DNA from: Chiloscyllium plagiosum
Taxonomy: Eukaryota
Length of the DNA: 56,945 nucleotides
Direction of reading: 5' to 3'
Assembly: GCF_004010195.1 (NCBI RefSeq)
Contig: NC_057718.1
Location: 93,682,230 to 93,739,174, forward strand
Below, piece after piece: positions 3,260 through 49,728 of this stretch. The stretch's first letter is position 1. Every line of letters starts with the position of its first letter. Position numbers and translations under genes: made by a program. The notes under the pieces are model-generated. The model did not search any database. It saw only the letters and a program-made list of their open reading frames with translations, and had not been told where the DNA came from.

Positions 3260-3995
3260 ACCTTGGCATTTAGGAAGTGGTACTGGAGGACTGGAGAATT
3301 GCAAACATTCTGAGGAAGACCCGAAACGTTATCTCTGATTTCTCTCCACAAATGCTGCCAGACCTGCTGAGCTTTTCCAGCAATTTCTGTTTATGTTGCA
3401 AACATTACACTCTTGTTCAGGAAAGGGTCCTAAAGGTAAGTCCAACTATTGCAGATCAATCAGCTTGACCCTCAGGGTGGGGGAACATCAAGATACAATT
3501 ATTCTGGATAGAAGTAACAGCCTTGTGGAAAAATGTAGGTCAATTCAGAGAAGTAAGCATGGACTCGGTAAGGGCAAATCATGTTTATCTAACATGCTAG
3601 AGATTTCAAAGAGTTAACCAATGAAGAGTTAACGAACAACATCAAGATGGCTGATGTGATGTACATGGACTTCCAAAAAACATTTGATACAGTGCCACAA
3701 AACAGACTTATGAGTAAAGTTACAGATCCTGGAATAAAAGGGATTGTAATAATATGGATATAAAGTTGGCTGAGAGATAGGAAACAGAATATTTGCTCAT
3801 GCTTTTTTTGGGCCAGAAGGAGAGTTGTAATGAAGTTCTTAAGAGATCAGTATTGAAACCCTTTCTTTTCCATATATCTGATTTGGTGATCATTTCAAAG
3901 TTTGCAGATGACACATAAGTTGGGAGATTTGTAAATTTTGAGAAGGACAATGTAGAACTTTAAAAGGATGTTGGCATGTTGGTGGAGTGGGCCAT
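3260..3995 (+). mobile_element. Decayed CR1 ORF2 reverse-transcriptase fragment
   Basis: V.EDWRIAN, NY...ISLT, HG..KGKSCLSNMLE, DV.YMDFQK.FD.VP and SKFADDT motifs across frameshifts. Confidence 0.85.
3310..3395 (+). mobile_element. Short Penelope-derived insert (family C), hammerhead with deleted stem II
   Basis: 11-bp TSD TTGCAAACATT at 3299-3309 / 3396-3406; begins CTGAGGAAGACCCGAAACGTT. Confidence 0.8.
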
Positions 3996-4047
3996 AAATG
4001 TCTTAATTATTCTGAGGTAGTCTTCTGCCAACTCCCTTTTTTCCTGA

Positions 4048-4225
4048 TCTGGAGATGCCAGTGTTGGACTGGGGTGGACAAAGAGAAGTCAACCAATACC
4101 AGTTTACAGACCAACACGTTTATTTGAAATCACAAAATTTCAAAGCGCTGCTCCTTTGTCACCTGACAAAATCTTGTAATTTCAAATTAACCTGTTGGAA
4201 TGTAACCTGGTGTCATGTGACTTCT
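4048..4225. mobile_element. Degenerate fold-back Penelope-derived element (family B)
   Basis: ggagatgccagtgttggactggggtggacaaag... followed by an inverted arm aacctgttggaatgtaacctggtgtc; same layout as 44453-44657. Confidence 0.7.
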
Positions 4226-4289
4226 ATCCTTTTTTCAGAGAGTCAATGCTATCTGTATTTCTAGAGTTTCTTCATTGGACACCCTTGTA

Positions 4290-4980
4290 TCACTTCACAA
4301 AAAGAATCAGGACCAAGTCATTCATCTCTTTAAGTCTGATCTGCCCAACAATATAATTGTAGCTAATTTTCTACCTTAATGCAAACTTTCCTCGCAATCC
4401 ATACATTAATGTGCCCTCTAACCTGAATGATCTTGGGGATGTGCAGCAACTTGAAGATTGTACTTGAGATGAACCTTGTAAGTTATTGAGTATCTGTTAC
4501 TGTCCACTAAAACTTAAAGAAAACTTAAACAGATCACCCAAGCATTTCACCTTACAATTAGAAAAGATACTGCCCCATTTCCCTCAAGTCCATCAGTATC
4601 CAGTCATCTATCATAAATGAATACCCATTGCTCTCTGGTTAGAGCATGCCAAAGACTCACAGTCTTTCAAGTGAAAAAAGGCCTTCATAACTCAATCCTA
4701 AATGGCCTAAAACTGATTCCTAGTTTGTTGACACCCCAGCCAGGGAAAACGTCCTCTCAGAATCTACTCTGTTGAGTCATTTGATAATTAGTGCTTCAGT
4801 TAGCTCAGCGGTCTTCAACATATGTTTACCCAATCACTCCATCTGAAACAAACACTCTTTCGCAGGAATCAACTAGTGTACCTTTGTAAATTCTAAAGCC
4901 TAAAACAAAATGTCCATTCTTAAATGAAATCCCACTGCTTAACAATCCAGAGCGTACTCATTGTTGCACTAACTACATAT
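4290..4980 (-). mobile_element. Old CR1 3' fragments
   Basis: Degenerate similarity to minus-strand CR1 ends at 28282-29270 and 38293-39225. Confidence 0.45.
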
Positions 4981-5259
4981 TTCACGTAATCATTTGAGCT
5001 GGAAGTTGTTAAATACATGCACAAGAACCTGTTCTCTGTAGAAAAATATCACTCATTCTAGCCTTGCATCCTTGTTGAATTATCAGGCAGTGTGGATGCC
5101 TATCGTTCCTGGTTGCTTTTCATGGCAATGCCTCAAGCAATCAGAGTAAATTTACCAACCACCCAGCACCCTACCATTTCCCAAGTATGAATTGCTATGA
5201 TCCTGTGAAATTTGGGAGCAGTGAGGTGTGGACTCTTTTGGATAATATCTGCAGATTAT

Positions 5260-5510
5260 CCCATGGCATTGTTTCAAAGGGGAGTTATCATGGGTGTCTT
5301 GGAAATATTCATTCTTCCATCAACGTAACTAAAGCAGAGTGTACCTGGCCATTACTGTGTTGCTGTATGTGGGAGCTTGCTAAGTGGAAATTGGTTGTAA
5401 TGATTCCTACATTACAATAGTGATGACATGACAAAAATATCTCACTGGCTGTAAAGGTCTTTGAGACATTAGGTTGGTGTAAAAAGAGATATGTAAATGT
5501 AATTTTGTTT
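5260..5510 (+). mobile_element. DeuSINE (SacSINE1/AmnSINE-like), 3' part
   Basis: Deu-domain-like ccatggca...ggagttatc...tgctgtatgtgggagcttgc...cctacattacaa...ctggctgtaaag..tttgagac. Confidence 0.7.
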
Positions 5511-5789
5511 TACTAATGTTAATGTTGCCTGTTAGTTAAGTTGTCACTATGCTGTTGGGCCCGGGTTAGTCCTTAAATCCTTCTGTATGAAGTAATGAGA
5601 GTTTAATTGATACTTTTTGATTGTATAGCGTTTCTGAAAGATTTACCAAAGGTTAATAAGCACTTGCCTGTGTGGAATTTGGGAGGATGTTTCTCATAAT
5701 CAGGAAAGGGCTTTTTCAAAATAAAGAGTTCTCCAATTTAAAATTAAGATGGGGATAGGCTTTTATAAAATCAGGCTATGGAATTCTGC

Positions 5790-6737
5790 AATGGATGTTG
5801 GGTCAGTGAATGTTGGCTCAGTGAATGTTGGGTCACTTGATTTTGGGTCAGTTAATGTTGGGTCAGTGAATGTTGGATCAGTTGATGTCATGTCAGTGGA
5901 TGTTGAGTCAGTGAATGTTGAGTCAGTGAAATTTGGGTCAGTTGATGTCGAGTCAGGAGATGTCAGGTCAGTGGATGTTGTGTCAGTGAATGTTGGGTGA
6001 GTAAATATTGGGTCAGTGGATGTTGGGTCAGTTGATGTCGCGTCAGTGGATGTTGAGTCAGTAGATGTTGGGTCAGGTGATGTCGGGTCAGTTGATGTTG
6101 GATCAGTTGATGTCGGATCAGTGGACGTTGAGTCAATGAATATGGGGTCAGTGAATGTTGGGTCAGTGGGTGTTGGGTCAGTGAATGATAGGTCAGTTGA
6201 CATCGGGTCAGTGAATGTTGGGTCAATTGATGTTGCGTCAGTGAATGTTGAGTCAGTAAATGTTTGGTCAGTTGATGTTGGGTCAGTTGATGTTGGGTCA
6301 GTTGATGTTGGGTCAGTTGATGTTGGGTCAGTTGATGTTGGGTCAGTTGATGTTGGGTCAGTTGATGTTGGGTCAGTTGATGTTGGGTCAGTTGATGTTG
6401 GGTCAGTTGATGTTGGGTCAGTTGATGTTGGGTCAGTTGATGTTGGGTCAGTTGATGTTGGGTCAGTTGATGTTGGGTCAGTTGATGTTGGGTCAGTTGA
6501 GGTTGGGTCAGTCGATATTGGGTCAGTCGATGTTGGGTCAGTGGATCTAAAGTTAATGGATGTTAAGTTAGTGGATGTTGGGTCAATGAATGTTGGGTTA
6601 GTGGATGTTTTGTCAGTGGCTGTTGGGTCAGTGGCTGTTGGGTCAGTGGATGTTGAGTTAATGAATGTTGAGTCGATGGATGTTGGGTCAGTGGATGTTA
6701 AGTTAGTGAATGTTAGGTCTGTGAATGTTGGGTCAAT
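5790..6737. repeat. 15-bp minisatellite (GGGTCAGTTGATGTT)n, about 63 units
   Basis: About 15 perfect units at 6266-6500 with degenerate flanks; source of the TDPTS, VGSVD and MLGQL repeat ORFs. Confidence 0.97.
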
Positions 6738-6825
6738 GAGTGTTCCCAAGGCCATATTACAGAGAGTTTTGGTCAACAAGGGAATCAAGAGTTGTGCTGG
6801 ATAGAGAGAAAAATGTAGTTTATGA

Positions 6826-7272
6826 CTGATAGATTTGTACAGCACAGTAACCTTTGGTCCAACCAATTAGATATTCTAAAGTAATCTAACCCCATTTGCC
6901 AGCATTTGACCCATATCCCTCTAAACCTTTCCTATTCATTTACCCATCCTGATACCTTTTAAATGCTAAAATTGTACCAGCCTCCACCATTTCCTCTGGC
7001 AGCTCATTCCATACCCGCACCACCTTCTGTGTGAAAAGATTGCCCCTAATATCCGTTTTAAATCTTTCCCCTCTCATCTGACAGTTATGCTCTCTAGGTC
7101 CCACTTACCCTGGGAAAAAGACCTCAGTGACTCACCCTATCTGTACCTCTCATAATTTTATAAACCTCTATAAGGTCATCCCTCAGCCTCTGATGCTCCA
7201 AGGAAAAGAACCCCAGCCTATTCACTCTCTCACTATAGCTCAAATACTGAAGTCCTGGCAACATCCTTGTTA
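6826..7272 (-). mobile_element. CR1 (HER1-like) LINE 3' end
   Basis: Reverse complement of the CR1 3' region at 16840-17322. Confidence 0.9.
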
Positions 7273-7824
7273 ACCTTAGATCCCCTGTCAGCCTCTCTGC
7301 TCCAAGGTGTACAATCCCAGCCTATCCAATCTGTAGTGATTGGAACTTGAGGCCATAATTGGATCAGCCTTGATCTATTTGCATGAAGGAGCAGGTTTAA
7401 GAGATTGAATGGCTTACTTCTGCTCTAGTTTCATATAACCTCAATTTTTTGCAAATAAATGGTGGAAAATAAAGAGGCTCATCAGCAAAATAAATCTCAG
7501 CTAACATTGTCCTTATGCATCAGTATGAATGACATAAACAAAGAAAGTATATAATTAAAGATAGGACAGGACAAGAGTGAAGCAATTGATAAAACAAAGT
7601 AAGGGAGATATATCTGTTAGTGCACATGAAAAAGGGCAAGTCATTGAAATTCTCCTTGTATTTTAATTGTTATGTCATAATGTGTAGAATTGTGTGGATT
7701 GTCACTAGAGGCGGGGGGGGGGGGGGGGAGGTGAGAGTAATGTACAAATCCAGGCAGCTTCCAGAGTCAGTTCAGATTCTATAAGGTTTGAGCAGTCTGC
7801 TTGGAAATGGAAAATATTGGCAGA

Positions 7825-7955
7825 ATACTACAAACTGTGGAAATTGAAAATAAAAATAGAATGTGCTGGAAATACTCAGCAACTCTGTCAGCATCCGTGA
7901 AAAGAGAAGCAGAATTAATGTTTGAAATTAAATGCGACTGTTTCTCACACAATGA
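7825..7955 (-). mobile_element. Old short Penelope-derived element (family C-like)
   Basis: gaatgtgctggaaatactcagca...agcatccgtgaaaagagaagcagaattaatgttt resembles 22365-22490. Confidence 0.55.
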
Positions 7956-8439
7956 AATTGCTTCTGGAGTCTAATCATATGCTGGGTTGATGTGAACACT
8001 CTGCAATACCCTCTGACACTGGGTTCGCTGTCAGAGATGTGGGTCAGATACATGGCCCCTTCTTCATATTTACCCAGGAATTATCGCCTCGGTCAATATC
8101 TGGTTGAACTCAAGAAATTAGCCAGTGTAACCTGAGCTGAACACCACAATCAAAACCCTCAACCAATTCCACCCAACTCTAACTCTCTCTCATCGCAATG
8201 TTTTGATCATGTGATTTGGGAGGACTGAGAATTTCAAAGCCACGGGCAATCTTCCCAGCTGTCATTGCGAAGGAAAACTCATTTCCTACTGCACCCACCC
8301 CGCAACTTTGCCTTCTGTGACTCTCCTTGTGCCAAATCCTAATCTAAAACTATCTTCCTTCCTCTATGTGTAGGAAAGCTAGCATGTGGGAATGAGGAAT
8401 CAAGTAATTTCAGAAATTCAAGCAATCATCTTCAACATC

Positions 8440-9835: not shown

Positions 9836-10352
9836 CACATGATCAGTACTTGGTTCAGTTGGTACAGCTTATCTCTACATAATAAGATAATATAACATTA
9901 ATGCAGACTTGCAGAGTTACATTGTACTTTGCTCAAAAACTGCATGAATTCATGTAAGACTCTGTTATCTCACTTTTTTAGTGTACAATCAGTCTAAACA
10001 TTATGGCAAAGACAAAGAACACAGGGGGCTAACACCTTCAGCATATTGTCTACCTAACACCAATTGTTACAGTTAACCTGAGAATGCAACTTTTAAAAAA
10101 AGGTTTTGTGATTTACACATGAAAGAAGTGGAACTATCATAGTATTCTAACAGATGAAAGTCACAACAAACAAGTAAGGTATTATTCAATGTATAATTTC
10201 AGTTACATCACGCTGTAAACTTTTGCTATAAATTCTGTGCCTGACAATTGTGCCCTCCACAACCACCTGATGAAGGAGTGGTGCTCTGAAAGCTACTGCT
10301 TCCAATTAAACCTGTTGGGCTATAACCTGGTGTTGTGTGATTTTTTTAACTT
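9836..10352 (+). mobile_element. Penelope-like element (family B) 3' fragment with captured local DNA at its 5' end
   Basis: 9904-10352 is collinear with 14200-14654; hammerhead motif at 10264-10298; 12-bp TSD AGCCACTGCAAA at 9824-9835 / 10353-10364. Confidence 0.85.
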
Positions 10353-10454
10353 AGCCACTGCAAAGCTATGGAACAACAGCTGCCAGGACCAAAGATGGCA
10401 CCGCCCATATAATAACAGTGCTGTTTGGAACTGACACCTGAACAGTCATTTGTA

Positions 10455-10555
10455 GCCTTTCCCAATGAAGGGCTTCTGCACGAAACATCAGTTTTCCTGT
10501 TCCTCGGATGCTGCATGGCCTGCTGTGCTTTTCCAGCATCACTCTAATCTTGACA
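10455..10555 (+). mobile_element. Short Penelope-derived element (family A), degenerate hammerhead
   Basis: ccaatgaagggcttctgcacgaaacatc...cctcggatgctgc...tgctgtgcttttccagc. Confidence 0.75.
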
Positions 10556-11918: not shown

Positions 11919-13261
11919 CTACAGAGCAATAAAGATGGGAAAACCGAACAGTTCTTTTCTCCAATTTGCCAATACACATCAAGGTATAGGTATCCTTTAT
12001 CAAAGTGTAACTTAGAGGCACTGAAGATCATTTGTGGGATTGATCAAACTGGCCTGTAATCATGAACTATCTCAACACAAAGATGGGATCAAACTAAGGA
12101 CCTTGACATCCCACAAATCTCGACATAGGGTGGCAATGATGGATGTGAGCTCTGAACCGGCCATTAATTTTATTAGTGAGCCATTTAGTTCATTCAGCCC
12201 TGCCCTCAGCTCTAAAATAGGTCCAACTGGTATAAGCAAAACTATAAACACGCCAGACCCTGCAGAGGTGACGGCACAGTGGTGTATAATCAGGAAAGGA
12301 TTGTCCTGGATTTCTTAACATTGACTCCAAGCACCATGAAGTCTCATGGCATTCAGTCAAACATGGACAAGGAGACCTTCTACTGAATACCACATACCAC
12401 ACCTTCCCTCAGCTGAGGAATCCATGTTCCTCCATTTTGAACACCACTTGGGGGAAATGTGGAACTGAGCAATGGTGCAGAATGTGCCAGTCTTCAGTAT
12501 CCGTCTCCAAGAGTGGATCGGCAGCACCACTATTTGCCAGAGCTTTTCAAGTCCTAAAGGATAGCGCTGCTGGACCGGACCTGCTGAGCTTTTCCAGCAA
12601 TTTCTGCTTTTGTAGATGTTGGACTGGGTTTGCTGCAGGTAGTGAAGGGACCAGCAAAAGAGAAAAAAAAACTTGACACCATCCTCACCAATATGCTTGC
12701 CACAGATGCATCCGTCCATTATAGAATCGGTAAGAGTGACCACTACACTGCCATTGTGGAGACAAAGCCCTGCCTTCACGTTGTTAATACTTCATGTTAT
12801 GTTTGTGGTTCTAAATGGGAGAGATCCAGCAACTCAGGACTGGACATCGATACGATACTGTGGGCCATCGATAGCAACAGTATTGTCCTCCAGCACAATC
12901 TGTAACTTCATGGCCTGGCATATCCCCCAGTCAACCATTACCATCAAGTCAGGGGATTGACCCTGGTTCAATGGAGAGTGCAGGAGGGCATGCCAGGATC
13001 AGCACCAGGAGATGCCAGCCTGGTGAAGCCCCAAAACAGGACTACTTGCAGGCTAAGCAGTAAGTAAAAGCAATTTCGTATTCAACAGATCAGATCGAAG
13101 CTCTGCAGTCCTCCCATATCCAGTCATGAACGGTGGTGGTCAATGAAAAAAATCATTGGAGGAGAAGGCTCCAGAAATATCCCCAACGTCAATGACTGGG
13201 GAGCTGGCCCATCAGTGCAAAAGACAAGATTGAATGTTGCAACAACAGTCAGAAGTGCTGA

Positions 13262-14654
13262 GTACAGAATCCTATGTGGATTCGTGCAGTTTTTAAGCAA
13301 AATAAATGTAATTCTGCAAGTACAAATTCACCCCACAAACTTACAGGCGAGACACAAGCTGCAATCGACAGGGTACCTTCATTGTCCAGTACTTCCCAGG
13401 AGCTGAAAAACTACACCATGTTCTTCGCAGCCTGCAACACATTATCGATGAAGATGAGCACCTCACCAAGATCTTCCCCACACCTCCATTTCTTGTCTTT
13501 AAACAACCATCAAACCTCAAACAGATCATTGTTCGCAGCAAGCTGCCCGGCTCTCAGGACAACTCCATACAACCCTGTCACGGCAGGTGCTGCAGGACAT
13601 GTCAGAGTGTCAACATGGGTACCACATTACACGTGGGGACACCTCCCACCATGTACGTGGCAGGTACTCATGTGACTCAGCCAACGTTGTCTATCTCATC
13701 CGCTGCAGGCAAGGATGCCCTGAGGAATGGTACATTGGTGAGATGGAGCAGACACTACGGCAATGGATGAATGGACACCGAAAAACAATCAACGGACAGG
13801 AGTGTTCCTTCCCAGCCGGACAACACTTCAGTGGTCCGGGAAATTCGACCTCGGACCTTCAGGTGACCACCCTCAAGGTGGACTTCGGTTCAGGCAACAA
13901 CACAAAGTGACAGAGCAGAGGCTGATAGCCAAGTTCGGTACCCATAGGGAGAGCGCACACACACACACACACTTCTATAGAGCCATAGACTCACGTAGAA
14001 CCTCTTTCATACATAAGCTGTCTTTCATACGTTCACACATACACTCCCACACTCACCCTCTCACAGACTTATACCCATTTACATTCACAGTCACACATAT
14101 ACACATACACACACTCTCTCACAGACATTCAAACCATTCTCACCCTGCACACGCACACCCACACCCACACGCACACACACACATATAAGTTTGTGGGATG
14201 AATTTGTACTTGCATAATTACATTTTATTTTGCTCAAAAACTGCATGAATCCACGTGCGATTTTGTAAATCCCTTTTTTAGATTAGAATCAGTCTGAACA
14301 TTGGGGCACAGACAGCCTCACACAGGGCACCTCACACCTTCAGTGCATTATCTGGGCTGACGTGACACCTATTGTTAAAGTTCACTTGAGAATGTAACTT
14401 TAAAAAAAGTTCTGAGATTTAAATATGAAAGAACTGAAACCAACATGGTCATTCTAAAAGATGAGAGACAAACAATCCAGGTCTTTTTCAATATATAATT
14501 TCAGTTACATCACACTGTAAACTTCTGCTCTACATTCTGTGTCCTATGATCTTATACTCCGCAACCACCTGATGAAGGAGCAGTGCTCCGAAAGCTAGTG
14601 CTTCCAAATAAACCTGTTGGACTATAACCTGGTATTGTGTAATTTTTAACTTTG
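13262..14654 (+). mobile_element. Penelope-like element (family B): GIY-YIG endonuclease region and 3' pLTR, with an inverted 5' piece
   Basis: ORF 13587-13910 SCDSANVVYLIRCRQGCPEEWYIGE...NGH (GIY-YIG); about 13264-13343 is the reverse complement of about 14186-14267; CA-rich 3' UTR. Confidence 0.9.
14566..14600 (+). ncRNA. Minimal type I hammerhead ribozyme motif (PLE family B), intact core
   Basis: CAC-CTGATGA-A-GGAGC(AGT)GCTCC-GAA-AGCT-A-GTG: stem I CAC/GTG, stem II 5 bp, palindromic stem III AGCT. Confidence 0.8.
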
Positions 14655-14686
14655 ATTTAACAAAGTGTGGCATCAATGAGCCCTAG

Positions 14687-15312
14687 GAGAGAAAGTGAGG
14701 TGCTGGATTTTAGAGTTGAAAAGTGTGATGCTGGAAAAGCACAATTTGTCAGACAGCACCTGAGGAACAGGAGAGTCAACGTTTTGGGGCATAAGCCCTT
14801 CATCAGGAATGGGGAGAGGCTGCAAGGAAAGGGGGCTGAGAGATAAATGGGAGGGTAGGGGTGGGGGTAGGGATGGGGGAAAGGTAGTTGGGAGTGCAAT
14901 AGTTAGATGCAGGTGGGAGGTGATGGCAATAGGTTGGAGTGGAGAGTGGAGCAGATAGGTGGGAAGGAAGATGGACAAGTAGGACAGCAGAACAGGGTGG
15001 TTCCAAGTTGGATGGTTGGACATGAAATGAGGTGGACGGAGGGGAGATGGGGAAAGTAGTAAAATCAACATTGATCATGTGGTTGGAGGGTCTCACGGCG
15101 GAAGATGAGGCATTCCTCCTCCAGGCGTCGGGTGGTATGATTTGGTGTTGCAAGAGGCCCTGGACTTGCATATCCTTGGCGAGTGGGAGGGGAAGTTCAA
15201 GTGATTGGCCATAGAGCAATGGGGTTGTTTGGTGCCCGTGTCTCAAAGATGTTCCCTGACGCATTCTGCATGTTGACGTCCTATCTCTACATCAGGAGCA
15301 ATGGACTCAGGA
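14687..15312 (-). mobile_element. Penelope-like element (family A) 3' fragment
   Basis: Minus strand encodes RRLEEECLIFR..TLQP.....VDF (PLE endonuclease C-terminus); degenerate hammerhead at about 14778-14810; TSD AGCCCTAG at 14679-14686 / 15313-15320. Confidence 0.85.
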
Positions 15313-16090: not shown

Positions 16091-17322
16091 TTTTGTCACT
16101 TACATAAATGATTTGGATGTGAGCATAAGAGGTACAGTTCGTAAGTTTGCAGATGACACCAAAATTGGAGGTGTAGTGGACAGCGAAGAGGGTTACCTCA
16201 GATTGCAACACGATCTGGACCAGATGGGCCAATGGGCTGAGAAGTGGCAGATGGAGTTTAATTCAGATAAATGCGAGGTGCTGCATTTTGGGAAAGCAAA
16301 TCTTAGCAGGACTTATACACTTAATGGTAAGGTCCGAGAGAGTGTTGCTGAACAAAGAGACCGTGGAGTGCAGGTTCATAGCTCCTTGAAAGTGGAGTCG
16401 TAGGAAGATAGGATAGTGAAGAAGGCGTTTGGTATGTTTTCCTTTATTGGTCAGAGTATTGAGTACAGGAGTCATCATCACCTCCCACCTGCATCTAACT
16501 ATTGCACTCCCAACTACCTTTCCCCCACCCCCACCCCCACCCTCCCATTTATCTCTCAGCCCCCTTTCCTTGCAGCCTCTCCCCATTCCTGAAGAAGGGC
16601 TCATGCCCGAAACATCAATTCTCCTGCTCCTTGGATGCTGCCTGACCTTCTGTGCTTTTCCAGCAACACATTTTCAGCTCTGATCTCCAGCATCTGCAGT
16701 CCTCACTTTCTCCTACAGGAGTTGGGAGGTCATGTTGCGGCTGTACAGGACATTGGTTAGGCCACTGTTGGAATATTGCGTGCAATTCTGGTCTCCTTCC
16801 TATCGGAAAGATGTTGTGAAACTTGAAAGGGTTCAGAAAAGATTTACAAGGATGTTGCCAGGATTGGAGGATTTGAGCTATAGGGAAAGGCTGAACAGAC
16901 GGGGGCTGTTTTCATTAGAGCAGTCAGAGGCTGAGGGGTGACTTTATAGAGGTTTGCAAAATTATGAGTAGCATGGATAGGATAAATAGATAAAGCCTTT
17001 TCCCTGGGGTCAGGGAGTCCAGAACCAGAGGGCATAGGTTTAGGGTAAGAGGGGAAAGATATAAAAGAGACCTAAGGGGCAACTTTTTCACGCAGAGGAT
17101 GTACATGTATGGATTGAGCTGCCCGAAGATGTGGTGGAGGCTGGTACAATTGCAACATTTAAGAGGCATTTGGATGGGTATATGAATAGGAAGGGTTTGG
17201 AGGGATATGGCCCGGGTGCTAGCAGGTAGGACTAGATTGGGTTGGGATATCTGGTCGGCATGGACAGGTTGGACCTAAGGGTCTGTTTCCATGCTGTACA
17301 TCTCTATGACTCTATGACTCTA
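16091..17322 (+). mobile_element. CR1 (HER1-like) LINE, 5'-truncated, relatively young
   Basis: YINDLD...KFADDTKIGG...WAEKWQMEFN.DKCEVLHFG; LYRTLVRPLLEYCVQFWSP; (CTATGACT)n tail. Confidence 0.95.
16473..16713 (+). mobile_element. Penelope-derived insert (family A) inside CR1
   Basis: 9-bp TSD TACAGGAGT at 16464-16472 / 16714-16722; hammerhead motif CTGAAGAAGGGCTCATGCCCGAAACATC from 16589. Confidence 0.9.
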
Positions 17323-18942: not shown

Positions 18943-19331
18943 CCTCCACCCGCCTACAGCACAACTTTACCCCCACCTCCATCCGCCTATTGCACGTGGA
19001 CTTCACCAGTTTCGTCATTTCCCCTCCCCCCACCTCACTCCAGTTCCAACCTTCCAGCTCAGCACCACCCTCATGACCTGTCCATCTTCCTTCCCACCTA
19101 TCCGCTGCACCCTCCTCTCCGACCTATCACCTTTACCCCCACCTCCATCCACCTACTGTACTCTCAGCTACCTTCTCCCCAGCCCCAGCCCTCCTCCTAT
19201 TCATCTCTCCCCCCCCCACCCCGGAGGCTCCCAACCTCATTCCTGATGAAGGGCTCTGACCCGAAACGTTGATTCTCCTGCTCCTCGGATGCTGCCTGAC
19301 CTGCTGTGCTTTTCCAGCAACACACTCTCAA
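18943..19331 (+). mobile_element. Penelope-derived insert (family A)
   Basis: 9-bp TSD CAGAAATAA at 18934-18942 / 19332-19340; hammerhead CTGATGAAGGGCTCTGACCCGAAACGTT from 19243. Confidence 0.9.
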
Positions 19332-19800: not shown

Positions 19801-20187
19801 GAGTTTACCTACTGTACTACAGCGATGTGCCAGTGCAATTGCACTATGTTCTGAGATAATTTAGAAATGGTAACTTTCAGAAATAAAGTCCACCATGGAA
19901 GTTGGTAGCTAGTTTGTCTAAAAGAGGAAAAGCAGTGCGTCTGCATTTGGTTTGCAGAAGACTGGACATTTTTGAATAAGGACAAATGATGCTATTTCAT
20001 GAGGAAGCAAACATGTGTGTATGCTGCTCACATCCAACAGGGGCAAAGCTTGAAAGGGAGAAATGTATTACTGAAAGGTCTTGCAATAAATTTGGTGAGA
20101 GGAAAGTGAATGATCGTAGTGTTACACTTTCATTACGGCAGAAATCCCTGACCTCGAAGAATGCCATCCGCTTTCTCTGCTTGGAGC

Positions 20188-20392
20188 TAATGAGGATTGC
20201 AGATGGTGGAAGTCAGAGTCGATAAAATGTGGGGCTGGAAAAACACAGCAGGTCAGACAGCATTGGAGGAGCAGGCAAGTCAACGTTTTGGCTTGGGACC
20301 CTTCCTCAGGACTGATGTGGGGTCCTGAGCTGAAACTCAACATTCCTGTTCCTCCGATGTTGTGTTTTTCCAGCTCCATATTTTATCCACTC
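20188..20392. mobile_element. Fold-back Penelope-derived element (A/C-like variant)
   Basis: gagtcgataaaatgtggggctggaaaaacaca...cttcctcagga then an inverted arm ending tgtgtttttccagctccatattttatccactc. Confidence 0.75.
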
Positions 20393-21724: not shown

Positions 21725-22364
21725 CTGTTGTCGCTAACCAGCTCCTTATTTATTATGGGACCAATCAAACATCCCACTCAGCAACCTCCAAAATTTTGTA
21801 AATTGTATAAATTGAGATGAAGGAAATACTGATGGGGAGCATTGAATGACAATTTGAACACAGATAAAGAGGTTGTTACTGACACAAATGGTAGATATTA
21901 GAGTTGGGAGTCATACACTGTTAATGTTTCACTTTATGAATAAATCTAACATTGATTGACTTCTTGTTTCTTACTTCAGAAAACAGACTTTGCGCCCTCA
22001 GAAAAATACGAAAAGATTTTTGTAACGAGAATTTATCTTTGTTTCCTCATCACTGCATCTCTGCCAGCTGTCTTACCGATTTAAAAATAATAATAAAAGT
22101 AATAATGATCAAGATGACTGAGAAACATATGTATATCTGCCCAAAACATGATTTAATTCAGAGGAATTGACTTTGCAGGAATGGTTGAAGATGCTGAGAG
22201 TGAAGGAGACTTTATTCTGTGATTGTCCAAACCATGGCTAGACTAAGACTGTTTTCTCAGTTTCCCACAATGTAAAATTGTGTGATATCATAGCACGTTC
22301 CATCACTTAAAGATTACAGTCCATTTTCTGACAAAAGGTAAATCTAACAAGCAATTTAAAACCT

Positions 22365-22490
22365 GAAAGAGCTGCAGATGCTGGGAATCAGAAACAAAAA
22401 CAGAAGGTGCTGGAAAAGCTCAGCAGGTCTGGCAACATCTGTGTAGAGAAAGCAGTTAACATTTCAGGTCCAGTGACCCTTCCTCAGAAC
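22365..22490 (-). mobile_element. Short Penelope-derived element (family C) with hammerhead motif
   Basis: Minus strand GTT-CTGAGGA-A-GGGTC(ACTG)GACCT-GAA-ATGT-T-AAC at about 22455-22490. Confidence 0.85.
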
Positions 22491-24452: not shown

Positions 24453-24742
24453 AAGCTCCCGCACAAATCAATAGAAACTATTGTATTAATACAAACAGTG
24501 CAGTGCTGGAAAAGCACAGCCGGTCAGGGAGTATCCGAGGAGCAGGACAATCGATGTTTCGGGCATAAGCCCTCCATTAGGAATAAGGCTTGTGGGCCAA
24601 GGGGGCTGTGAGATAAATGGCAGGGGGGTGGGGCTGCAGGGAAGGTAGCTGGGAATGCAATAGGTAGATGAAGGTGGGAGTGAAAGTGATAGGTCGGAGA
24701 GGAGGATGGAGCGGATAGGTGGGAAGGAAGATGGACAGATAG

Positions 24743-25195
24743 CCCGGCACCGCCTTCCTGACCTGCAGTCTTCTTCTTGACCTCTCCGCCTCCATCCTAC
24801 TCCGACCTATCACCCTGCCCTTCTTTAGGAATGAGCAGAGAGTGTTCAGCAGGAGAAGATAAAAGGTAGGGAGGAGGGACTTGGAGGAGGGGAGTTGGAA
24901 GTGGAGGAGATGCGGTGGAGGGCACCGTCGACCACGTCGCCTTCCTGACCTGCAGTCTTCTTGTTGACCTCTCCGCCTCCATCCTACTCCGACCTATCAC
25001 CCTCACCTTGACCTCTTTCCACCTATCACATTTCCAACTCCCCTCCTCCAAGTCCCTCCTCCCTACCTTTTATCTTCTCCTGCTGAACACTCTCTGCTCA
25101 TTCCTGAAGAAGGGCCTGTGCCCGAAACGTCGAATCTCCTGTTCCCTGGATGCTGCCTGACCTGCTGTGCTGTTCCAGCAATAAAGTTTCAACCC
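24743..25195 (+). mobile_element. Young Penelope-derived insert (family A) with a scrambled 5' end
   Basis: 14-bp TSD AGATGGACAGATAG at 24729-24742 / 25196-25209; CpGs retained. Confidence 0.9.
25100..25135 (+). ncRNA. Minimal type I hammerhead ribozyme motif (PLE family A), intact
   Basis: ATTC-CTGAAGA-A-GGGC(CTGT)GCCC-GAA-ACGT-C-GAAT: stem I ATTC/GAAT, palindromic ACGT, GUC cleavage triplet at 25129-25131. Confidence 0.8.
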
Positions 25196-25527
25196 AGATG
25201 GACAGATAGGACAGGTCGTGACGGCGGTGCAGAGTTGGAAGATTGGGATTAGGATAAGGTATGGGAGAGGAGATAGGGAAACTGGTGAAATCCACATTGA
25301 TCCTGTGCAGAGGGTCCCAAGGCGGAAGATGAGGCGTTCTTCCTCCAGGCGTTGGATGGTTAGGGTTTCGGGCGATGGAGGAGGCCCAGGACCTGCATGT
25401 CCTTGGCGGAGTGGGAGGGGGAGTTGAAGTGTTCAGCTTGGGGATTGTATTAATACCTATGGTACTGGTTCTGATGATGAATCATACCAAACTCGAAATT
25501 TTGTTTCTCTCTCCACAGATACAAAAG

Positions 25528-29800: not shown

Positions 29801-30090
29801 ATTACTGTCAACAAACACATCGAGTTAGACCCCATCTACCACCCCCTGAGAAAAAGAACAGGAAACGACATCACCGCAGGAAATGACATCACCACAAGAA
29901 ATAACATCACCGACCCAAAGAAACCCAAACATCTAAATAAAAAGCAGGAATCATGTACACTGCTTCGCCTGAGGCCCACTGAAGATGTTACCTAGTAGGG
30001 TGACGAAACGTCTGGAAATGAACTTCCCAGCTCAGCGAACAAACCTACATCCAGAACCTAAACCTGAGCTACAAATCTTCTCAAAACTCG
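29801..30090 (+). mobile_element. Penelope-like element (family D) 3' end
   Basis: VNKHIELDPIYHPLRKRTG C-terminus; hammerhead at 29976-30015; TSD CTGAGTA at 29794-29800 / 30091-30097. Confidence 0.8.
29976..30015 (+). ncRNA. Minimal type I hammerhead ribozyme motif (PLE family D), intact
   Basis: CCA-CTGAAGA-T-GTTACC(TAGTAG)GGTGAC-GAA-ACGT-C-TGG: stem I CCA/TGG, stem II 6 bp including one G-U, GUC at 30010-30012. Confidence 0.85.
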
Positions 30091-32614: not shown

Positions 32615-33197
32615 TACCAGGATGTTGCTCGGTATGGAGGGAGGGTCTTACGAGGAAAGGCTGAGGGACTTGAGGCTGTTTTCGTCAGAGAGAAGAAGAT
32701 TGAGAGGTGACTTAATAGAATGGAGAGTGCAGTGTTGGAAAAGCACAGCAGGTCAGGCAGCATCCGAGGAGCAGGAGAATGATGTTTCGGGCATAAGCCC
32801 TTCATCAGCCCAACTCTGATCTTCAGTATCTGCAGTCCTCACTTACTCCTAGTTGACTTAACAGAGACATATAAGATAACCAGAGGGTTAGATAGAATGG
32901 ATAGTGAGAGCCTTTTTCCTCGGATGGTGATGGCTAGCACAAAGCGACATTGCTTTAAATTGAGGGATGATAGGTATAGAACAGATGTCAGAGGTAGGTT
33001 CATTACTCAGAGAGTAGTAAGGGCATGGAACACACTGCCTGCAACAGTAGTAGACCCACCAAATTTAAGGGCATTTAAATGGTCATTGGATAAACATATG
33101 GATGATAATGGAATAGTGCAGCTTAAATGAGCTTCAGGTTGGTTTCACAGGTCAGTGCAACATCGAGGGCCGAAGGGCCTGCTCTGCACAGTATTCT
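32615..33197 (+). mobile_element. CR1 LINE 3' end
   Basis: TRMLLGMEG.SYEERLRDLRLFS.ERRRLRGDLIE; ORF 32897-33130 DVRGRFITQRVVRAWNTLP; tail gggccgaagggcctg. Confidence 0.9.
32720..32853. mobile_element. Short inverted-junction Penelope-derived insert (family A) in CR1
   Basis: TSD TGACTTAA(T/C)AGA at 32708-32719 / 32854-32865; minus-strand hammerhead core at 32781-32808, then a plus-strand tail piece. Confidence 0.85.
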
Positions 33198-42365: not shown

Positions 42366-42432
42366 GCTGCTCATGACTCCAATACTGCAGCTGAGCGGGG
42401 GGGGGCTCACAATTTGTTGTCTATGTCTTAGG

Positions 42433-42798
42433 CCATAAGACATAGGGGCAGAAATTAGGCCTCTCAGCCCATCAAGTCTGCTCTGCTATTCAGGAGAAAG
42501 TGAGGTCTGCAGATGCTGGAGATCAGAGATGGAAATGTGTTGCTGGAAAAGCGCAGCAGGTCAGGCAGCATCTAGGGAACAGGAGAATCGACGTTTCTTT
42601 CCTGAAGAAGGGCTAATGCCCGAAACGTCGATTCTCCTGTTCCCTAGATGCTGCCTGACCTGCTGCGCTTTTCCAGCAACACATTTCCTGCTCTGCTATT
42701 CAATCATGGCTGATAAGTTTCTCAATCCCATTCTCCCATGATCCCATTGACAATCAAGAACCTATCTATCTCAGTCTTAAATATACTCAATGATCTGA
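42433..42798 (-). mobile_element. CR1 tail fragment split by a PLE fold-back
   Basis: ccataagacataggggcagaaattaggcc...ttcaatcatggctgataagtttctcaatcccattctccc; reverse complement of 44040-44186. Confidence 0.85.
42493..42688. mobile_element. Young fold-back Penelope-derived element (family A) with intact hammerhead core
   Basis: Perfect 67-bp inverted arms at 42531-42597 / 42622-42688; 14-bp TSD TGCTCTGCTATTCA at 42479-42492 / 42689-42702; CTGAAGAAGGGCTAATGCCCGAAACGTC at 42602-42629. Confidence 0.92.
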
Positions 42799-42806
42799 AG
42801 CTTTTA

Positions 42807-44186: not shown

Positions 44187-44452
44187 AGATAGTGCTGGCA
44201 CAACAGCATGCCAACTTGTGACATGAACATTCACTCTTACCCACCTGTGGTTCACAGCCAGGTGGGCTGAAAGTCTTGCAACACTCCCCTGCCTGTCTCT
44301 CAATTTGGACATGCCAATTAATAATGTCTCCTCTTGGTCTGGCCTGCTCCCTGTGGATTGTAGTACCCTACATTGATCCTCTCAATAAGAGGTCTATTAA
44401 AATCCCAAACTGGCTACTAAGCTGCTTGTTCCCCACATCATTGCAGTCATGA

Positions 44453-44657
44453 TTTGGAGAAGCCGGTGTTGGACTGGGGTGTACAAAGTTAAAAATCACA
44501 CAACACCAGGTTATAGTCCAACAGGTTTAATTGGAAGCACACTGGCTTTCGGAGCGACGCTCCTTACCACCTGATGGAGCGTCGCTCCAAAAGCTAGTGT
44601 GCTTCCAATTAAACCTGTTGGACTATAACCTGGTGTTGTGTGATTTTTTAACTTTGA
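44453..44657. mobile_element. Fold-back Penelope-derived element (family B)
   Basis: About 65-bp near-perfect inverted arms around two broken hammerhead halves; TSD core ACATCATTGCA at 44435-44445 / 44658-44668. Confidence 0.9.
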
Positions 44658-45539: not shown

Positions 45540-46244
45540 TATGTTGAGGTTGTAAAGGATGTTAGTGAGGCCTCTTCTGGAGTACTCTGTCCAGTTCTGG
45601 TCGCCCTGCTACAGGAAGGATATTATTAAACTGGAGGAGGTTCAGAAGAGATTTACCAGGATGTTGCTGGGAACGGAGAGTTTGAGTTAGAGGGTTAAGC
45701 TGGATAGGCTGGGATTTTTTTTTCGCTGGAGAGGTGACCTTATACAGAGGAACCTCGATTACCAACATTCGATTATCTGAATTTCGGATTATCCGAACAA
45801 GATCGCAAGCTCTCGATCCTTGGCTAACTATATTATCCCGTGTTTGATTATCTGGCAATCGAATAACCGAATGAAATACTCCCCGCTCGTGTCCTTTGGG
45901 TAATTAAGGTTCCTCTGCAGAGGGTTATAAAATATTGGGGGGTATAAATAATGTGAAGGGCAGGTGCCTTTTCCCCAGGATGGGGGAGACTAGGGGGCAT
46001 ATTTTTAAGGTGAGAGGAGAGAGATTTAGAAAAGACATGAGGAGCAATTCTTTACAAGAACTTTCTGCGGTGGGTGCAGACATAGTTACAACATTTAATA
46101 GACATTTGAATAAGGACAAGAATAGAAAATGTTTGGAGGGATATGGGCCAAGCGCAGGCAAGTGGGACGAGTTTAGTTTGGGATTACAGTCGACACGGAC
46201 TGGTTGGACTGAGGGGTCTGTTTCCATGACTCTGTAACTCTCTA
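45540..46244 (+). mobile_element. CR1 LINE 3' portion with internal deletions
   Basis: LVRPLLEYSVQFWSP.YRKDI.KLE.VQKRFTRML; ORF 45935-46237; CR1 tail. Confidence 0.9.
45745..45917. mobile_element. Tc1/mariner (Tigger/pogo-like) MITE
   Basis: Terminal inverted repeats CAGAGGAACCTCGATTACC / GGTAATTAAGGTTCCTCTG (17/19); inserted at the TA of CR1 'gaccttaTAgagg' (TA/CA flanks); internal GATTATCCG-like repeats. Confidence 0.85.
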
Positions 46245-46264
46245 CCTCAGTATGACCCTTACTC

Positions 46265-46700
46265 CAAATCCATTCACTTATTCAGTTGTAGGGTGTGAGT
46301 CTAATTTACAAGGCTGGTATTTATTGCCTATGCCAAATTGTCCTTCAGCCAGTAATGGTGTGCCAATTTCGTCGATGGAATTGATTTATTCTTAACTGTC
46401 CTGAGCTAGCCACATTGTTGTGGATCTGGAGCCACATAGAAGGCCAGCCCAGACAGGAAAGGCAGATTTCCTTCTGCAAGGGATATTACTGAAAGAAATG
46501 GGGTTTTTTTCTTTAATAAGGATCTCGTCATTTCAAGGTCACCGTTATGGATACTCACTTTTTAATTCCAGGTTTTCTCCTTAAAAAATGAACTGGGACT
46601 TGTCAGCAGTCATAGTGGGATTTGAGATCATACTTCTGAGATCATCACTCAAAGGCAGTGCATTCCTCATCCAGTAATGTAAGCACGATGCTGCTAAGGG
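46265..46700 (-). mobile_element. Old SINE-B
   Basis: ccacattgttgtggatctggagccacat..aggccag...ggcagatttccttc matches 11058-11130. Confidence 0.65.
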
Positions 46701-46720
46701 GCACACACACCTGTTGCTAT

Positions 46721-47392
46721 CAGTTACAGTCATAGAGCATCATAGAGATGTACAGCACAGAAACAGACCCTTTGGTCCAACTTGTCCATGCTGACCAGAT
46801 TTTTTCTAACCTAATCTGGTCCCATTTGCCAGCACCCGGCCCATATCCCTCTGAACCCTTCCCATTCATTAACCCATCCAGATCCCTTTTAAATGCTATA
46901 ATTGTACCAGCCTCCACCAGTTCATTTGGCAGCTCAGTCCATGTACGCACCATCTTCTGTGTGATAAAGTTGTCCCTTTTTGTCCCTTTTAAATCTTTCC
47001 CCTCTCACCTTATAGCTATGCTTTCTAGGGCTCCCTTACCCTGGGAAAAAAGACCTTGTCTATTTATCCTATCCATGACTGTCATGATTTTATGGACCTC
47101 TATAAAGTCACCCCTCAGCCTCCTATACTCCAGGGAAAACAGCTCCATCCGACTCAGCCTCTCCCTATAGCTCAAAACCTCCTATCCTGGCAACATCCTT
47201 GTAAATCTTTTCTGAACTCTTTCAAGTTTCACAACCTCCTTCCTATAAGAGGAAGACCAGAATTGCACACAATACTTCAAAAGTGTCCCAACCAAAGTGC
47301 TATACAGCTGCAACATGATCTCCCAACTCCTATACTCAATGCTCTGTCCAATTAAGGAAAGCATACCAAATGTCTTCTTCACTATCCTATCT
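46721..47392 (-). mobile_element. CR1 (HER1-like) LINE 3' portion
   Basis: ORF 47182-47382 LYSTLVGTLLKYCVQFWS.SYRKEVVKLERVQKRFTRMLPG; CR1 tail. Confidence 0.92.
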
Positions 47393-47742
47393 TCTGCACA
47401 TCCTTAAATATTTCTGTCCAATTTAACAGCCTCGTATTCCTACCTCTTTTCTTTCACTGCTCCCACATAGCAGCTTGCACACTCCTGTATTGGAAGACTT
47501 ATCCTTAACTTCTCTCTCTTCTTGCGGGACAAGGTAAGCACATAGCCCCCAACAGAGGCAGGGCACAGAAGAGGCATCACTAGTTTCAGAAGAGAGCCGC
47601 GGAAAGAGTGAACACTTTGCCAGTTACAGCTTCGAGGCTGCACCCCTGAATTGTCACCCTGGAGTCTGCGTGAGGCACAGGGTGCTGTAACCTCTTGTAA
47701 CCTCTAACCTTGAACATGTTTATGACAGATTGAGGTGAAGCT

Positions 47743-47944
47743 AAATATCACACAACACCAGGTTATAGTCCAACAAGTTTATTTGGAAGCACTTGCTTTT
47801 GGAGCGCCACTCCTTCATCAGGTGGTTGTGAAGGAGCAGAGCTCCGAAAGCTAGTGCTTCCAAATAAACCTGTTGGACTGTAATCTGGTGTTATGTGATT
47901 TTTAACTTTGTACACACCAGTCCAAGACCAGCTCCTCCACATCA
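47743..47944. mobile_element. Fold-back Penelope-derived element (family B)
   Basis: Inverted arms around hammerhead remnants; TSD core AGATTGAGGT at 47727-47736 / 47945-47954. Confidence 0.88.
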
Positions 47945-48291
47945 AGATTGAGGTAAGGCAGAGAAAGAAAAATTGTTCCCATTAACTAATGCAAAACTGT
48001 TCTCTTTCATTAATACAGCGCTGTACCCACAATGTCAATACCATTACAAATGCATAATATTTGTTAATTATTGTCCAACCTGTTTCTTTGCTTAATGATG
48101 GCAATTTTAGATGATGTGTTGGAGCAGGGAAGGAAGAGCAGCTGGGCGGTAACATTCCGTATTGACAGAACTACTCAGTACAAATGTAGCCACAGGAAGG
48201 ACTTCCATGTTAACTGGGCTAGTGTCACTGAAGAATTCTCACTGCTGTATCCAGTGAATACTCTTACCCAAGGTAAGAAATTAGGACTCTT

Positions 48292-48400
48292 GTGATGCAG
48301 TGGCAGTATCCCTAGCTCTAAACCAGGAGGTTAAATTCAGGTCCCACCTGCTGCAGAGATGCGTAATGTCCCTGCTGAACAAATTGATTAGAAAATATCT
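48292..48400 (+). mobile_element. Short degenerate tRNA-derived SINE
   Basis: A-box-like tgatgcagtggcagtatccctag and B-box-like aattcaggtcccacc in about 110 bp. Confidence 0.45.
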
Positions 48401-48538
48401 ACAATCACACTGGAGGAGGACGATAATTACTCTGTGCAATGAGAATTACTTAGTCTTTGTAGTTTTGTTCCACCTTTCTGCCAACATGGGGGAGTTATAG
48501 GAAGGGCGTACAGTATGTTGCCTTAAGCACGTTGACAA

Positions 48539-49475
48539 GTCGTAAGACAATAAGACACAGAAGCAGAGATTAGGCCATTCGGCCCATCGAGTCTGCTCCA
48601 CCAATTGATCATGGCTGACAGGTTTTTCAACTCCATTTTCCCGCTTTCTCCCCATAACCTTTGAACCCCTTGGCAATCATGAACGTATTTATCTCTGTTT
48701 TAAATATACTCAATGATCTGGCCTCCACAGATTCACTACATTCTGAGAGGAGACATTTCTCCTCAGCTACTATCGTAGGGTGTGATCCTTTATTCTAGGT
48801 TTATGCTGTCTGGTCTTAGATCCTCCCAAAAAGGGCAAATAGCACTCCACACTTACCCTGTCAAGTCTCTTAGGAATCTTGGGTGTTTCTATAAGGTCAC
48901 CTCTTATTCATCTTCAATCCAATAAACACAGGCCCAACCCACTTAATCCCTCCTCATACGACAATCCCTCCACATCCAGTATCAGCCTAGTGACCCTTTT
49001 CTGGACTGCCTCCAATACCTATATATATATTCCTTAGATAAGGGGTCAAAACTAGTCAAAGTATTCTAGCTGTGGTCTAACTAGCATTTAGTATTGCTTT
49101 AGCAAAGCCTCTATCACCCCCACCCTGACTCCAAATGCTCTTATACCCCACTCTGTTTGAAATTGAGGCCAACATCACTTGCTTTCCCTGTTCCTTGCTG
49201 AATTTGGATTTGAGCTTTTTGAATTTCACACATGAGGATTCCCAAATCCCTCTGTTCCATAGCTTTGTGCAGTCTTTCTCCATTTAAAAAACGTTCAGCT
49301 CATCCATTCTTCCTGCCAAAGTGTGTAACCTTACATTTTGCCACTTTATATTCCATTTGCACACTCACTTAACCTGACTATATTCTTCTGCAGACTCTTT
49401 GTGTAACCCTCACCACTTGTATTTCCACCTATTGTTGCATTCTGTAGTATGTTCACTTTCCTCATCCAAGTCACT
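48539..49475 (-). mobile_element. Older CR1 LINE 3' portion
   Basis: taagacaataagacacagaagcagagattaggccattcggcccatcgag tail; decayed ORF2 upstream. Confidence 0.85.
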
Positions 49476-49624
49476 TTTAACTTTCTTGAACAGGTGGAGG
49501 GAGAGGGTGAGGGAGAGGGAGAGGTGGTGATAGGTAGACAATGGTGGATTATAGATTTCAGAATGCTTCACTCACCTGAATGAATATTGGAGTCTCGAAA
49601 TGCATAAACACTCATCCTGCTGCC

Positions 49625-49728
49625 TCAGAAATCTAAAGCAAAAGCAGAAATTGCTGGATAAACTCAGCAGTGCTCTGAGGACGGAAAACAGAGTTAACAT
49701 TTTGAGTCCAGTGACCCTTCTTCTGCAA
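49625..49728 (-). mobile_element. Short Penelope-derived element (family C), degenerate hammerhead
   Basis: cagaaattgctggataaactcagcag...cagagttaacattttgagtccagtgacccttctt. Confidence 0.75.

What the first reader, a model, noticed from the sequence alone, without database searches (positions are those of the whole stretch)
3310..49728. About 17 hammerhead-ribozyme motifs in four families of mostly tiny Penelope-derived elements
Seen: the core CTGAnGA-[extra nt]-stem II-GAA-A..T-H recurs with four different stem II sequences that all still pair. A: GGGC/GCCC (10461, 14778, 16589, 19243, 24553, 25104, 32781, 42602). B: GGAGC/GCTCC (10267, 14569, 44570, 47800). C: GGGTC/GACCY (3310, 22455, 49690, with a variant near 20290). 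D: GTTACC/GGTGAC (29979). Stem I also covaries (ATTC/GAAT, CAC/GTG, GTT/AAC, CCA/TGG). Stem III is a loopless palindrome (ACGT or AGCT) in the intact copies. Established: Penelope-like elements carry minimal type I hammerheads with palindromic stem III that are thought to act as dimers. Inference: most copies here are 85-250-bp non-coding units, many with their own 9-14-bp TSDs, at roughly one per 3-4 kb. This suggests a very abundant ribozyme-bearing non-autonomous class in sharks, and intact copies could cleave any transcript that reads through them.
Basis: partly seen in the sequence, partly recalled or inferred. Interest (0 to 1): 0.75.

Follow-up and report, generated by a model that had tools for sequence, protein, structure and literature searches.

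The report
Penelope run-off stubs carrying hammerheads
These motifs are real but mostly decayed copies of the known minimal hammerhead ribozyme of Penelope-type jumping genes, and the tiny ones are likely dead-end copies of the first 95-130 bases of the element's capped RNA rather than a separate mobile family or working RNA cutters.

Summary
All 17 motifs are there, on both strands, in four Penelope-like (PLE) families. Only 3 of 17 keep core, stems and palindrome; 7 have core lesions; 8 extend into upstream pLTR or ORF remnants. The density holds genome-wide: 284 arms in 957 kb, about 1 million arms and about 100,000 intact motifs by extrapolation. PLE minimal hammerheads are known. In a young subfamily, 42 of 81 arms start within 7 nt of stem I, about 31 nt below a TATA-like box (same spacing in B and C), often after an extra G. 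Their 3' ends fall at two sites 36 nt apart, and 16 of 16 head-to-head pairs use one of each. Best reading: reverse transcription starts inside the 5' tail and runs off the capped, uncut RNA, leaving dead-end stubs. Cleavage of host transcripts is unsupported. Instead, 1,516 of 3,325 RNA reads laid on a family-B copy end in poly(A) just after its AATAAA (one run). The scan reached the run-off reading before on other DNA; that is not independent support.

The parts
3310..3395 (+). Family C tiny copy; 5' arm of stem II deleted; 11-bp TSD (3299/3396)
4044..4227 (.).
7852..7918 (-). Family C tail fragment (not listed)
9931..10352 (+). Family B long copy (aligned part): pLTR with TATAAAT at 10227, HHR at 10267 (G10.1-C11.1 lost), ATTAAA at 10305
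10459..10552 (+). Family A tiny copy, 5' core broken
12568..12612 (+). Family C tail fragment (not listed)
13345..14655 (+). Family B long 5'-truncated PLE: Cys linker and GIY-YIG remnant, microsatellite, pLTR, intact HHR at 14566-14600 (predicted cut after 14597), AATAAA at 14607, short tail
14684..15287 (-). Older family A long copy with ORF 3' remnant; HHR C3 at 14806, G12 lost; long tail
16473..16714 (+). Family A copy with about 110 nt of pLTR, inside a LINE; stem III CpG-decayed; 9-bp TSD
18943..19331 (+). Family A copy with ORF 3' end; near-intact HHR at 19243 (3-bp stem II, H17=U); 9-bp TSD
20183..20385 (.).
22360..22490 (-). Family C tiny copy; core boxes intact, G10.1-C11.1 and palindrome lost
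24504..25431 (-). Older family A long copy (HHR C3 at 24580, broken; endonuclease remnant at 25212-25431), split by the young insertion below
24743..25195 (+). Young A1 compound insertion (453 bp, 14-bp TSD at 24729/25196) inside the older copy's pLTR; intact HHR at 25100-25135 (predicted cut after 25131); short tail
29801..30090 (+). Family D copy: ORF C-terminal remnant, intact HHR at 29976-30015 (predicted cut after 30012), ATG at 29985 opening a frame through the tail; 7-bp TSD
32716..32853 (-). Family A tiny copy plus inverted tail piece; stem III CpG-decayed; 8-bp TSD
42493..42689 (.). Family A head-to-head dimer, long-tail plus short-tail arm; HHR at 42602 with 2-bp stem I; 13-bp TSD
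44446..44657 (.). Family B head-to-head dimer, cores broken; 11-bp TSD; poly(A) hexamer in each arm
47737..47944 (.). Family B head-to-head dimer; minus arm starts at about -9; G12 lost; 10-bp TSD; poly(A) hexamer in each arm
49630..49727 (-). Family C tiny copy, decayed
56174..56271 (-). Family A tail-only copy (outside the finding's span)

Best explanation
The motifs are the minimal hammerheads of four endonuclease-bearing Penelope-like families, and the tiny copies are likely run-off products: the element's enzyme would nick the target, start reverse transcription at one of two internal tail sites near the 5' end of its own capped RNA, copy back through the uncut ribozyme and fall off at the transcription start. 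Shown: shared 5' boundary, two 3' ends, TSDs, TATA-like spacing, excess G at the junction, identity with the ends of long copies. Inferred: that the boundary is the capped start; that head-to-head pairs come from priming on both strands, one at each start site; that the run-off cDNA sometimes jumps to another RNA position and makes short tandems; that stubs are dead ends because they lack the downstream protein-binding RNA. After insertion they decay neutrally and most are predicted not to cut; family-B copies can act as poly(A) sites.
For: Positions are relative to C3. (1) 81 tail-anchored young A1 arms: 5' ends at -7..-1 in 42, at 0..+29 in 26, at -10 or further upstream in 13. (2) 3' ends: 35 near +90, 46 near +126; 16 of 16 inverted pairs have one of each (chance about 1e-5, my calculation); 13 of 16 pairs have 12-17 bp TSDs, against 3 of 300 null pairs reaching 9 bp. 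This matches two internal RT start sites and both-strand extension by the anole PLE (PMC11167929). (3) TATA-like box to 5' cluster is about 31 nt in A (-35 to -4), B (-40/-38 to -9..-7) and C (-35/-33 to -4..-2), while the offset to the ribozyme differs. (4) Base before A(-4) in 100 listed of 1,746 non-templated junctions: G 39, A 50, T 11; without two recurrent inverted junctions G is 39 of 64 (p=4e-9). A C-to-G substitution at that site occurs once against about 4,000 long copies. (5) 88 RNA reads break off at -4 with mixed flanks. (6) ORF-start pieces are joined directly onto -4, several through an extra G. (7) RT relatives carry RT plus GIY-YIG domains.
Against: No direct mapping of the RNA 5' end: neither read lay showed a pile of molecule starts, and the reads at -4 come from genomic copies inside other transcripts. 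Family A has only a weak TATA-like word. Non-templated G addition could have other causes. Family D is mostly long, with only about 5 of 29 arms starting at -30..-16. Long copies carry no G scar at -5 (1 of 10 variants against 1 of 7 at a control site), so how most long copies arise is not shown. The 81 arms come from the first 16.4 Mb of one contig. Some structures are re-copied.
Confidence: 0.72

Rival explanations
1. The tiny units are a self-propagating non-autonomous (SINE- or retrozyme-like) family, transcribed and copied as units by PLE enzymes.
For: Fixed ends, TSDs and very high copy number. One idiosyncratic 224-nt tandem junction occurs at 40 places. Compound structures recur. Two dimers share a 100%-identical stretch of about 100 nt of flank beyond the tail. 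PLE-derived retrozymes are reported in vertebrates (10.64898/2026.07.22.740005).
Against: Young stubs match the ends of long copies letter for letter. They end at the RT start sites and lack the downstream region needed in vitro (PMC11167929). Inverted junctions vary from copy to copy, with TSDs right at both tail ends. The recurrent compounds are also explained as copies of the 5' part of read-through RNA from a few master loci. Only 672 exact matches to the ORF-start word against 17,322 to the tail word.
Confidence: 0.13
2. The shared 5' end is a stalling or joining hotspot (ribozyme fold, pyrimidine tract or microhomology) on longer RNA, not the RNA's own end.
For: The boundary coincides with the 5' arm of stem I in A and C. 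Many inverted junctions use microhomology, and 36 of 100 junctions fall in two recurrent classes.
Against: RT meets the fold from its 3' side, yet the ends lie beyond the whole ribozyme. In B the cluster lies 4-6 nt outside stem I, and no D arm starts at the stem I edge. The G excess and the constant TATA spacing are unexplained by it.
Confidence: 0.12
3. Intact dispersed copies are functional self-cleavers that process host transcripts and are kept by selection.
For: About 100,000 intact motifs by extrapolation; copies are transcribed on both strands; non-CpG core positions differ in 3.4% against 6.0% in the tail (biased by the alignment anchor and subfamily mix).
Against: G12 is lost in 10 of 63 copies, like other CpG sites (8-15 of 63). 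No depth step or pile of ends at the cut site (weak test). Monomers are inactive and dimers weak in PMC4209133; 8 of 9 frog dimers did not cleave in the 2026 preprint.
Confidence: 0.05

Closest known systems
Minimal type I hammerheads of metazoan PLEs (Cervera and de la Pena 2014, PMC4209133; read parts 1-2 of 4)
   Same: Core, extra nucleotide between 9 and 10.1, G10.1-C11.1, loopless palindromic stem III, several families per genome, mostly single motifs, opposite-strand pairs 100-700 bp apart.
   Different: About 100,000 intact motifs by extrapolation against about 4,000 (coelacanth) and 9,000 (Xenopus) with their descriptor; the parts read do not describe a fixed 5' boundary.
PAc, Poseidon PLE of the anole (Frangieh 2024, PMC11167929; read parts 1-2 of 4 and passages)
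   Same: Two 3' ends about 35 nt apart, both-strand insertion, uncleaved RNA as template. [quoted passage not shown]
   Different: The parts read do not map genomic 5' ends, a cap signature or poly(A) use; families A and C start their ORF well after the ribozyme or were not mapped.
EN+ PLE insertions with pLTR, inverted arm and one-sided tail (Arkhipova 2013, PMC3846280; Craig 2021, PMC8557442; Schostak 2008, PMC2377424; passages)
   Same: Head-to-head arms, tail on one end, 8-10 bp TSDs, TATA and Inr-like words and start site in the pLTR, Cys linker in family B.
   Different: Here most young arms stop at one boundary. Junction data (short-tail arm carrying the junction loop in 3 of 4 cases) fit two primed cDNAs better than fold-back.
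Metazoan non-LTR retrozymes (PMC7229834 passages; 10.64898/2026.07.22.740005 parts 1-3 of 5)
   Same: A minority of loci are direct tandems of 200-320 nt units, each with a hammerhead, derived from the pLTR.
   Different: The window's copies are monomers or inverted pairs, not tandems; minimal rather than canonical ribozymes; no circular RNA shown.

Membership tests
PLE minimal type I hammerhead | CUGANGA, GAAA, UH core with extra base and G10.1-C11.1 | tested here: met
   Met in 3 of 17 window copies and in young copies genome-wide (12,140 exact matches); not met in the decayed copies.
PLE minimal type I hammerhead | Palindromic loopless stem III | tested here: met
   Palindrome present in 7 of the 12 copies with an intact 3' box.
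PLE minimal type I hammerhead | Self-cleavage (as dimer or protein-assisted) | not testable with these tools
   Needs a cleavage assay; MFE cofolding did not give the catalytic dimer, which is uninformative.
EN+ Penelope-like element | RT plus C-terminal GIY-YIG ORF upstream of the pLTR | tested here: met
   B: RT in L265, relatives with PF00078 and PF01541, remnant at window 13345-13951. A: RT-thumb similarity and ORF start. C not examined; D by C-terminal remnant only.
EN+ Penelope-like element | 30-40 bp tail on one end, inverted arm, TSD | tested here: met
   16 of 16 A1 pairs.
Neptune/Nematis-type PLE | CX2-5CxxC linker between RT and EN | tested here: inconclusive
   Present in the family B remnant (frame 13312-13770); not shown for A or C; no RT tree was built.
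Penelope/Poseidon clade (family D) | RT phylogeny; no Cys linker | not tested
   Assignment rests on likeness to PAc (ATG in stem II, tail length) and a recalled C-terminal motif.
Non-LTR retrozyme | Direct tandem units each with a complete hammerhead | tested here: not met
   No direct tandem among the window's 26 arms; met at other loci such as L180, L245, L255.
Non-LTR retrozyme | Circular RNA intermediate | tested here: inconclusive
   'Goes back' joints fit repeats within the laid stretch; the poly(A) library is unsuited.
SINE-like non-autonomous family | Own lineage and own promoter, distinct from the autonomous partner | tested here: not met
   Young stubs are identical to ends of long copies and start below the TATA-like box; no full phylogeny was done.

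The most novel reading that the evidence does not exclude
About a million stubs are a genomic record of the Penelope mechanism: twin-primed strong-stop cDNAs copied from two internal start sites to the cap of uncut RNA, able to jump templates and so seed tandems and pLTRs, while family-B stubs spread working poly(A) sites through host transcripts.
Probability: 0.5. Interest if true: 0.65.

Novelty: new member of a known kind. Interest (0 to 1): 0.42.

Why it matters
The ribozymes themselves are a known PLE feature. What adds value is that the very young, abundant copies give base-level ends for a transposition cycle that is still poorly understood. They predict the start site, cap read-through, use of both RT start sites in one insertion and template jumps. 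Schostak 2008 notes that the basis of PLE tandem formation is unexplained. The copy number would be among the highest reported for hammerheads in a vertebrate (axolotl: up to 120,000 retrozymes, PMC7229834). The measurable effect on host RNA appears to be polyadenylation at family-B copies and inverted repeats in transcripts, not ribozyme cleavage.

Tried and rejected
Rfam scan: no hammerhead family hit; only chance hairpin matches. Cleavage-site peak: none of 81 A1 arms starts at +28. In a targeted search 21 of 100 listed rows (of 1,515) appear to start at +28 against a mean of 8.5 at +25, +26, +27 and +29 (p=2e-4). Without 8 microhomology-type inverted junctions it is 13 (p=0.09), and the 5 of 30 loci inspected were all inverted or rearranged junctions, none joined cleanly to target DNA: inconclusive. 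Cap-crossing strand transfer leaving a G scar in long copies: not seen. RNA search: no RNA holder listed; run X22 laid no reads. Exact D-family pattern matched only the window. No intact full-length ORF was recovered; the two ORF starts followed run into assembly gaps. No host gene identified: 13 of 14 candidate frames had no Pfam hit and one was a LINE RT, so intron strand bias was not tested. One search used an off-by-one anchor and was redone. In one search one arm (L145 +) was dropped by de-duplication, and one long arm is the reference itself. Searches were cut in print; B and C histograms are. Lunse 2017 was not available and is cited only through PMC6765202. Supplements were not read; Fig. 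S2 of PMC11167929 (genomic coverage of PAc ends) may already show the 5' boundary. Literature searches found no paper describing shark PLE stubs or run-off to a capped start.
Full report
Observation. All 17 places hold a hammerhead motif or its remnant. Seven are on the minus strand. A strict descriptor found 4 in the window and 1 in 20 shuffled windows. Scored one by one, 3 of 17 are fully intact (14569, 25104, 29979), 2 are near-intact (42602, 19243), 5 keep both core boxes with damaged helices, and 7 have a core lesion. BLAST with family ends finds 26 arms in the window. Eight of the 17 extend upstream into pLTR or ORF remnants; 14569 ends a 1.3-kb copy with a Cys linker and GIY-YIG remnant. 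TSDs of 7-14 bp flank nine of the listed insertions. The young copy at 25104 sits inside the pLTR of an older family-A copy with a 14-bp TSD.

Abundance. In 100 evenly spaced 10-kb stretches (956,668 non-N bases) there are 284 arms (A 153, B 61, C 46, D 24), 47 intact cores and 28 fully intact motifs; five shuffles gave 0-1 cores each. Extrapolated to 3.56 Gb this is about 1 million arms and 100,000 intact motifs, assuming the sample is representative. One exact intact family-A pattern matches 12,140 times.

Identity. A family-B RT stretch hits RVT_1, and its relatives carry RT and GIY-YIG domains. [quoted passage not shown] These are PLE minimal hammerheads as described in PMC4209133, which also reports single dispersed motifs and opposite-strand pairs.

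Ends of young copies. Positions are relative to C3. Anchoring on the tail avoids bias at the 5' end. I examined 81 arms from 70 loci covering the first 78 of 17,322 matches; one arm was lost to de-duplication. 5' ends fall at -7..-1 in 42, at 0..+29 in 26, and further upstream in 13. 3' ends fall near +90 (35) or +126 (46). All 16 head-to-head pairs with both arms scored combine a short and a long tail, and 13 of 16 have 12-17 bp TSDs; 17 of 40 single arms have 9-16 bp TSDs. A one-sided tail is known (PMC3846280, PMC8557442), and PMC11167929 shows that the tail ends are two internal RT start sites, that both strands are extended, that sequence downstream of the start sites is required, and that ribozyme cleavage is not. 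Genome-wide, 4,042 exact copies reach -18 against 12,140 reaching -3 with a slightly looser pattern.

Why the 5' ends agree. A TATA-like word lies at -35 in A, -40/-38 in B, -35/-33 in C and -49 in D. 5' ends cluster at about -4 in A, -9..-7 in B (-13..-4 in 42 of 183 by profile) and -8..-2 in 36 of 79 C arms. In D about 5 of 29 arms start at -30..-16 and none at the ribozyme edge. The spacing to the box stays near 31 nt while the spacing to the ribozyme changes. At -4, A and C have initiator-like words (consensus recalled). Among 100 listed junctions without the templated C, the preceding base is G 39, A 50, T 11 (counted by hand); 36 of the A's are two recurrent inverted junctions. G is 39 of 64 without them (p=4e-9) and 39 of 100 with them (p=0.003). 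Substitution cannot explain this. An extra G from copying the cap is known for L1 (recalled). In one single-cell poly(A) run, 88 reads leave the family-A stretch at -4 with mixed flanks; this confirms the boundary, not the start site.

Other products. Of 30 loci holding the ORF-start word (672 matches), many join an ORF-start piece of variable length directly to -4, several through a G, which I read as template jumps after run-off. One 224-nt junction recurs at 40 places inside compound tandems that themselves recur, and two dimers share identical flank. These may be retrozyme-like lineages or copies of the 5' part of read-through RNA from masters. Long copies show no G scar at -5.

Does the ribozyme cut? 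A secondary peak of 5' ends at the predicted cut (+28) is inconclusive. In 63 family-A copies G12 is lost in 10, like other CpG sites. Read depth shows no step at the cut site and no pile of ends, a weak test. Published monomers are inactive and dimers weak (PMC4209133), the anole ribozyme needs its protein (PMC11167929), and 8 of 9 frog dimers did not cleave (10.64898/2026.07.22.740005). The core is shared across four otherwise unrelated families, so it mattered to the source elements, not to the stubs.

Poly(A) use. Laid on family-B copy L136, 620 plus 896 of 3,325 reads end in poly(A) 12 and 15 nt after the tail's AATAAA (ATTAAA in about a third), where the genomic sequence is GT-rich, not A-rich; depth is about 2,300 against 400 by strand. 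This is one run of one sample, 2% read, and the loci of origin were not mapped. Some reads carry unrelated upstream sequence, which suggests host transcripts. Six such hexamers lie in the window.

Prior notes. Three earlier AI reports of this scan reached the same run-off reading on other DNA. My reading was noted before that look-up. One suggested that ends also record the cut site, which prompted.

Verdict. A known kind of ribozyme in a new host at very high copy number. The non-autonomous-class and host-cleavage claims are not supported for the bulk. The ends give a testable model of PLE transposition.

Noticed in passing
L136:1510-1530 (family B tail); window 10305, 14607, 44531, 44608, 47783, 47863: AATAAA/ATTAAA followed by a GT-rich stretch; 1,516 of 3,325 laid reads are polyadenylated 12-15 nt after it. 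It lies upstream of both tail ends.
   Followed up: partly
L244-L259; G000:C1:26522077-26522700: 224-nt tandem unit with one idiosyncratic junction at 40 places, in compound arrays with 2-5 hammerheads in direct orientation; retrozyme-like.
   Followed up: partly
L095 and L145: Two long-arm dimers with the same junction share identical flank beyond the short tail: transduction from a common master.
   Followed up: partly
window 24504-25431: Young A1 insertion inside the pLTR of an older family-A element, 14-bp TSD, with an internal inversion.
   Followed up: yes
L225, L241, L242, L243: Recurrent inverted junction (13 of 100 rows) in which one arm lacks about 55 nt between two short direct repeats.
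   Followed up: partly
window 5699-6866: 15-bp minisatellite of more than 50 units giving long spurious open frames.
   Followed up: no
window 16350-17310, 46793-47355, 51470-51880, 56266-56945: Several LINE fragments with RT remnants (RVT_1 hit); CR1-type by recall. Two family-A copies sit inside them.
   Followed up: no
window 21464, 26787, 30755, 42809, 51155 and others: Abundant SINE copies, resembling the shark HE1/V-SINE by recall.
   Followed up: no
L260:686-1800 and L261: Family-A ORF has a long Ser/Thr/Pro/Ala-rich, partly tandem-repeated segment after its N-terminal domain.
   Followed up: no
head-to-head dimers at 42493-42689, 44446-44657, 47737-47944: Near-perfect 90-100 bp inverted arms would form double-stranded RNA in any read-through transcript and bury the ribozyme; editing or small-RNA production untested.
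   Followed up: no
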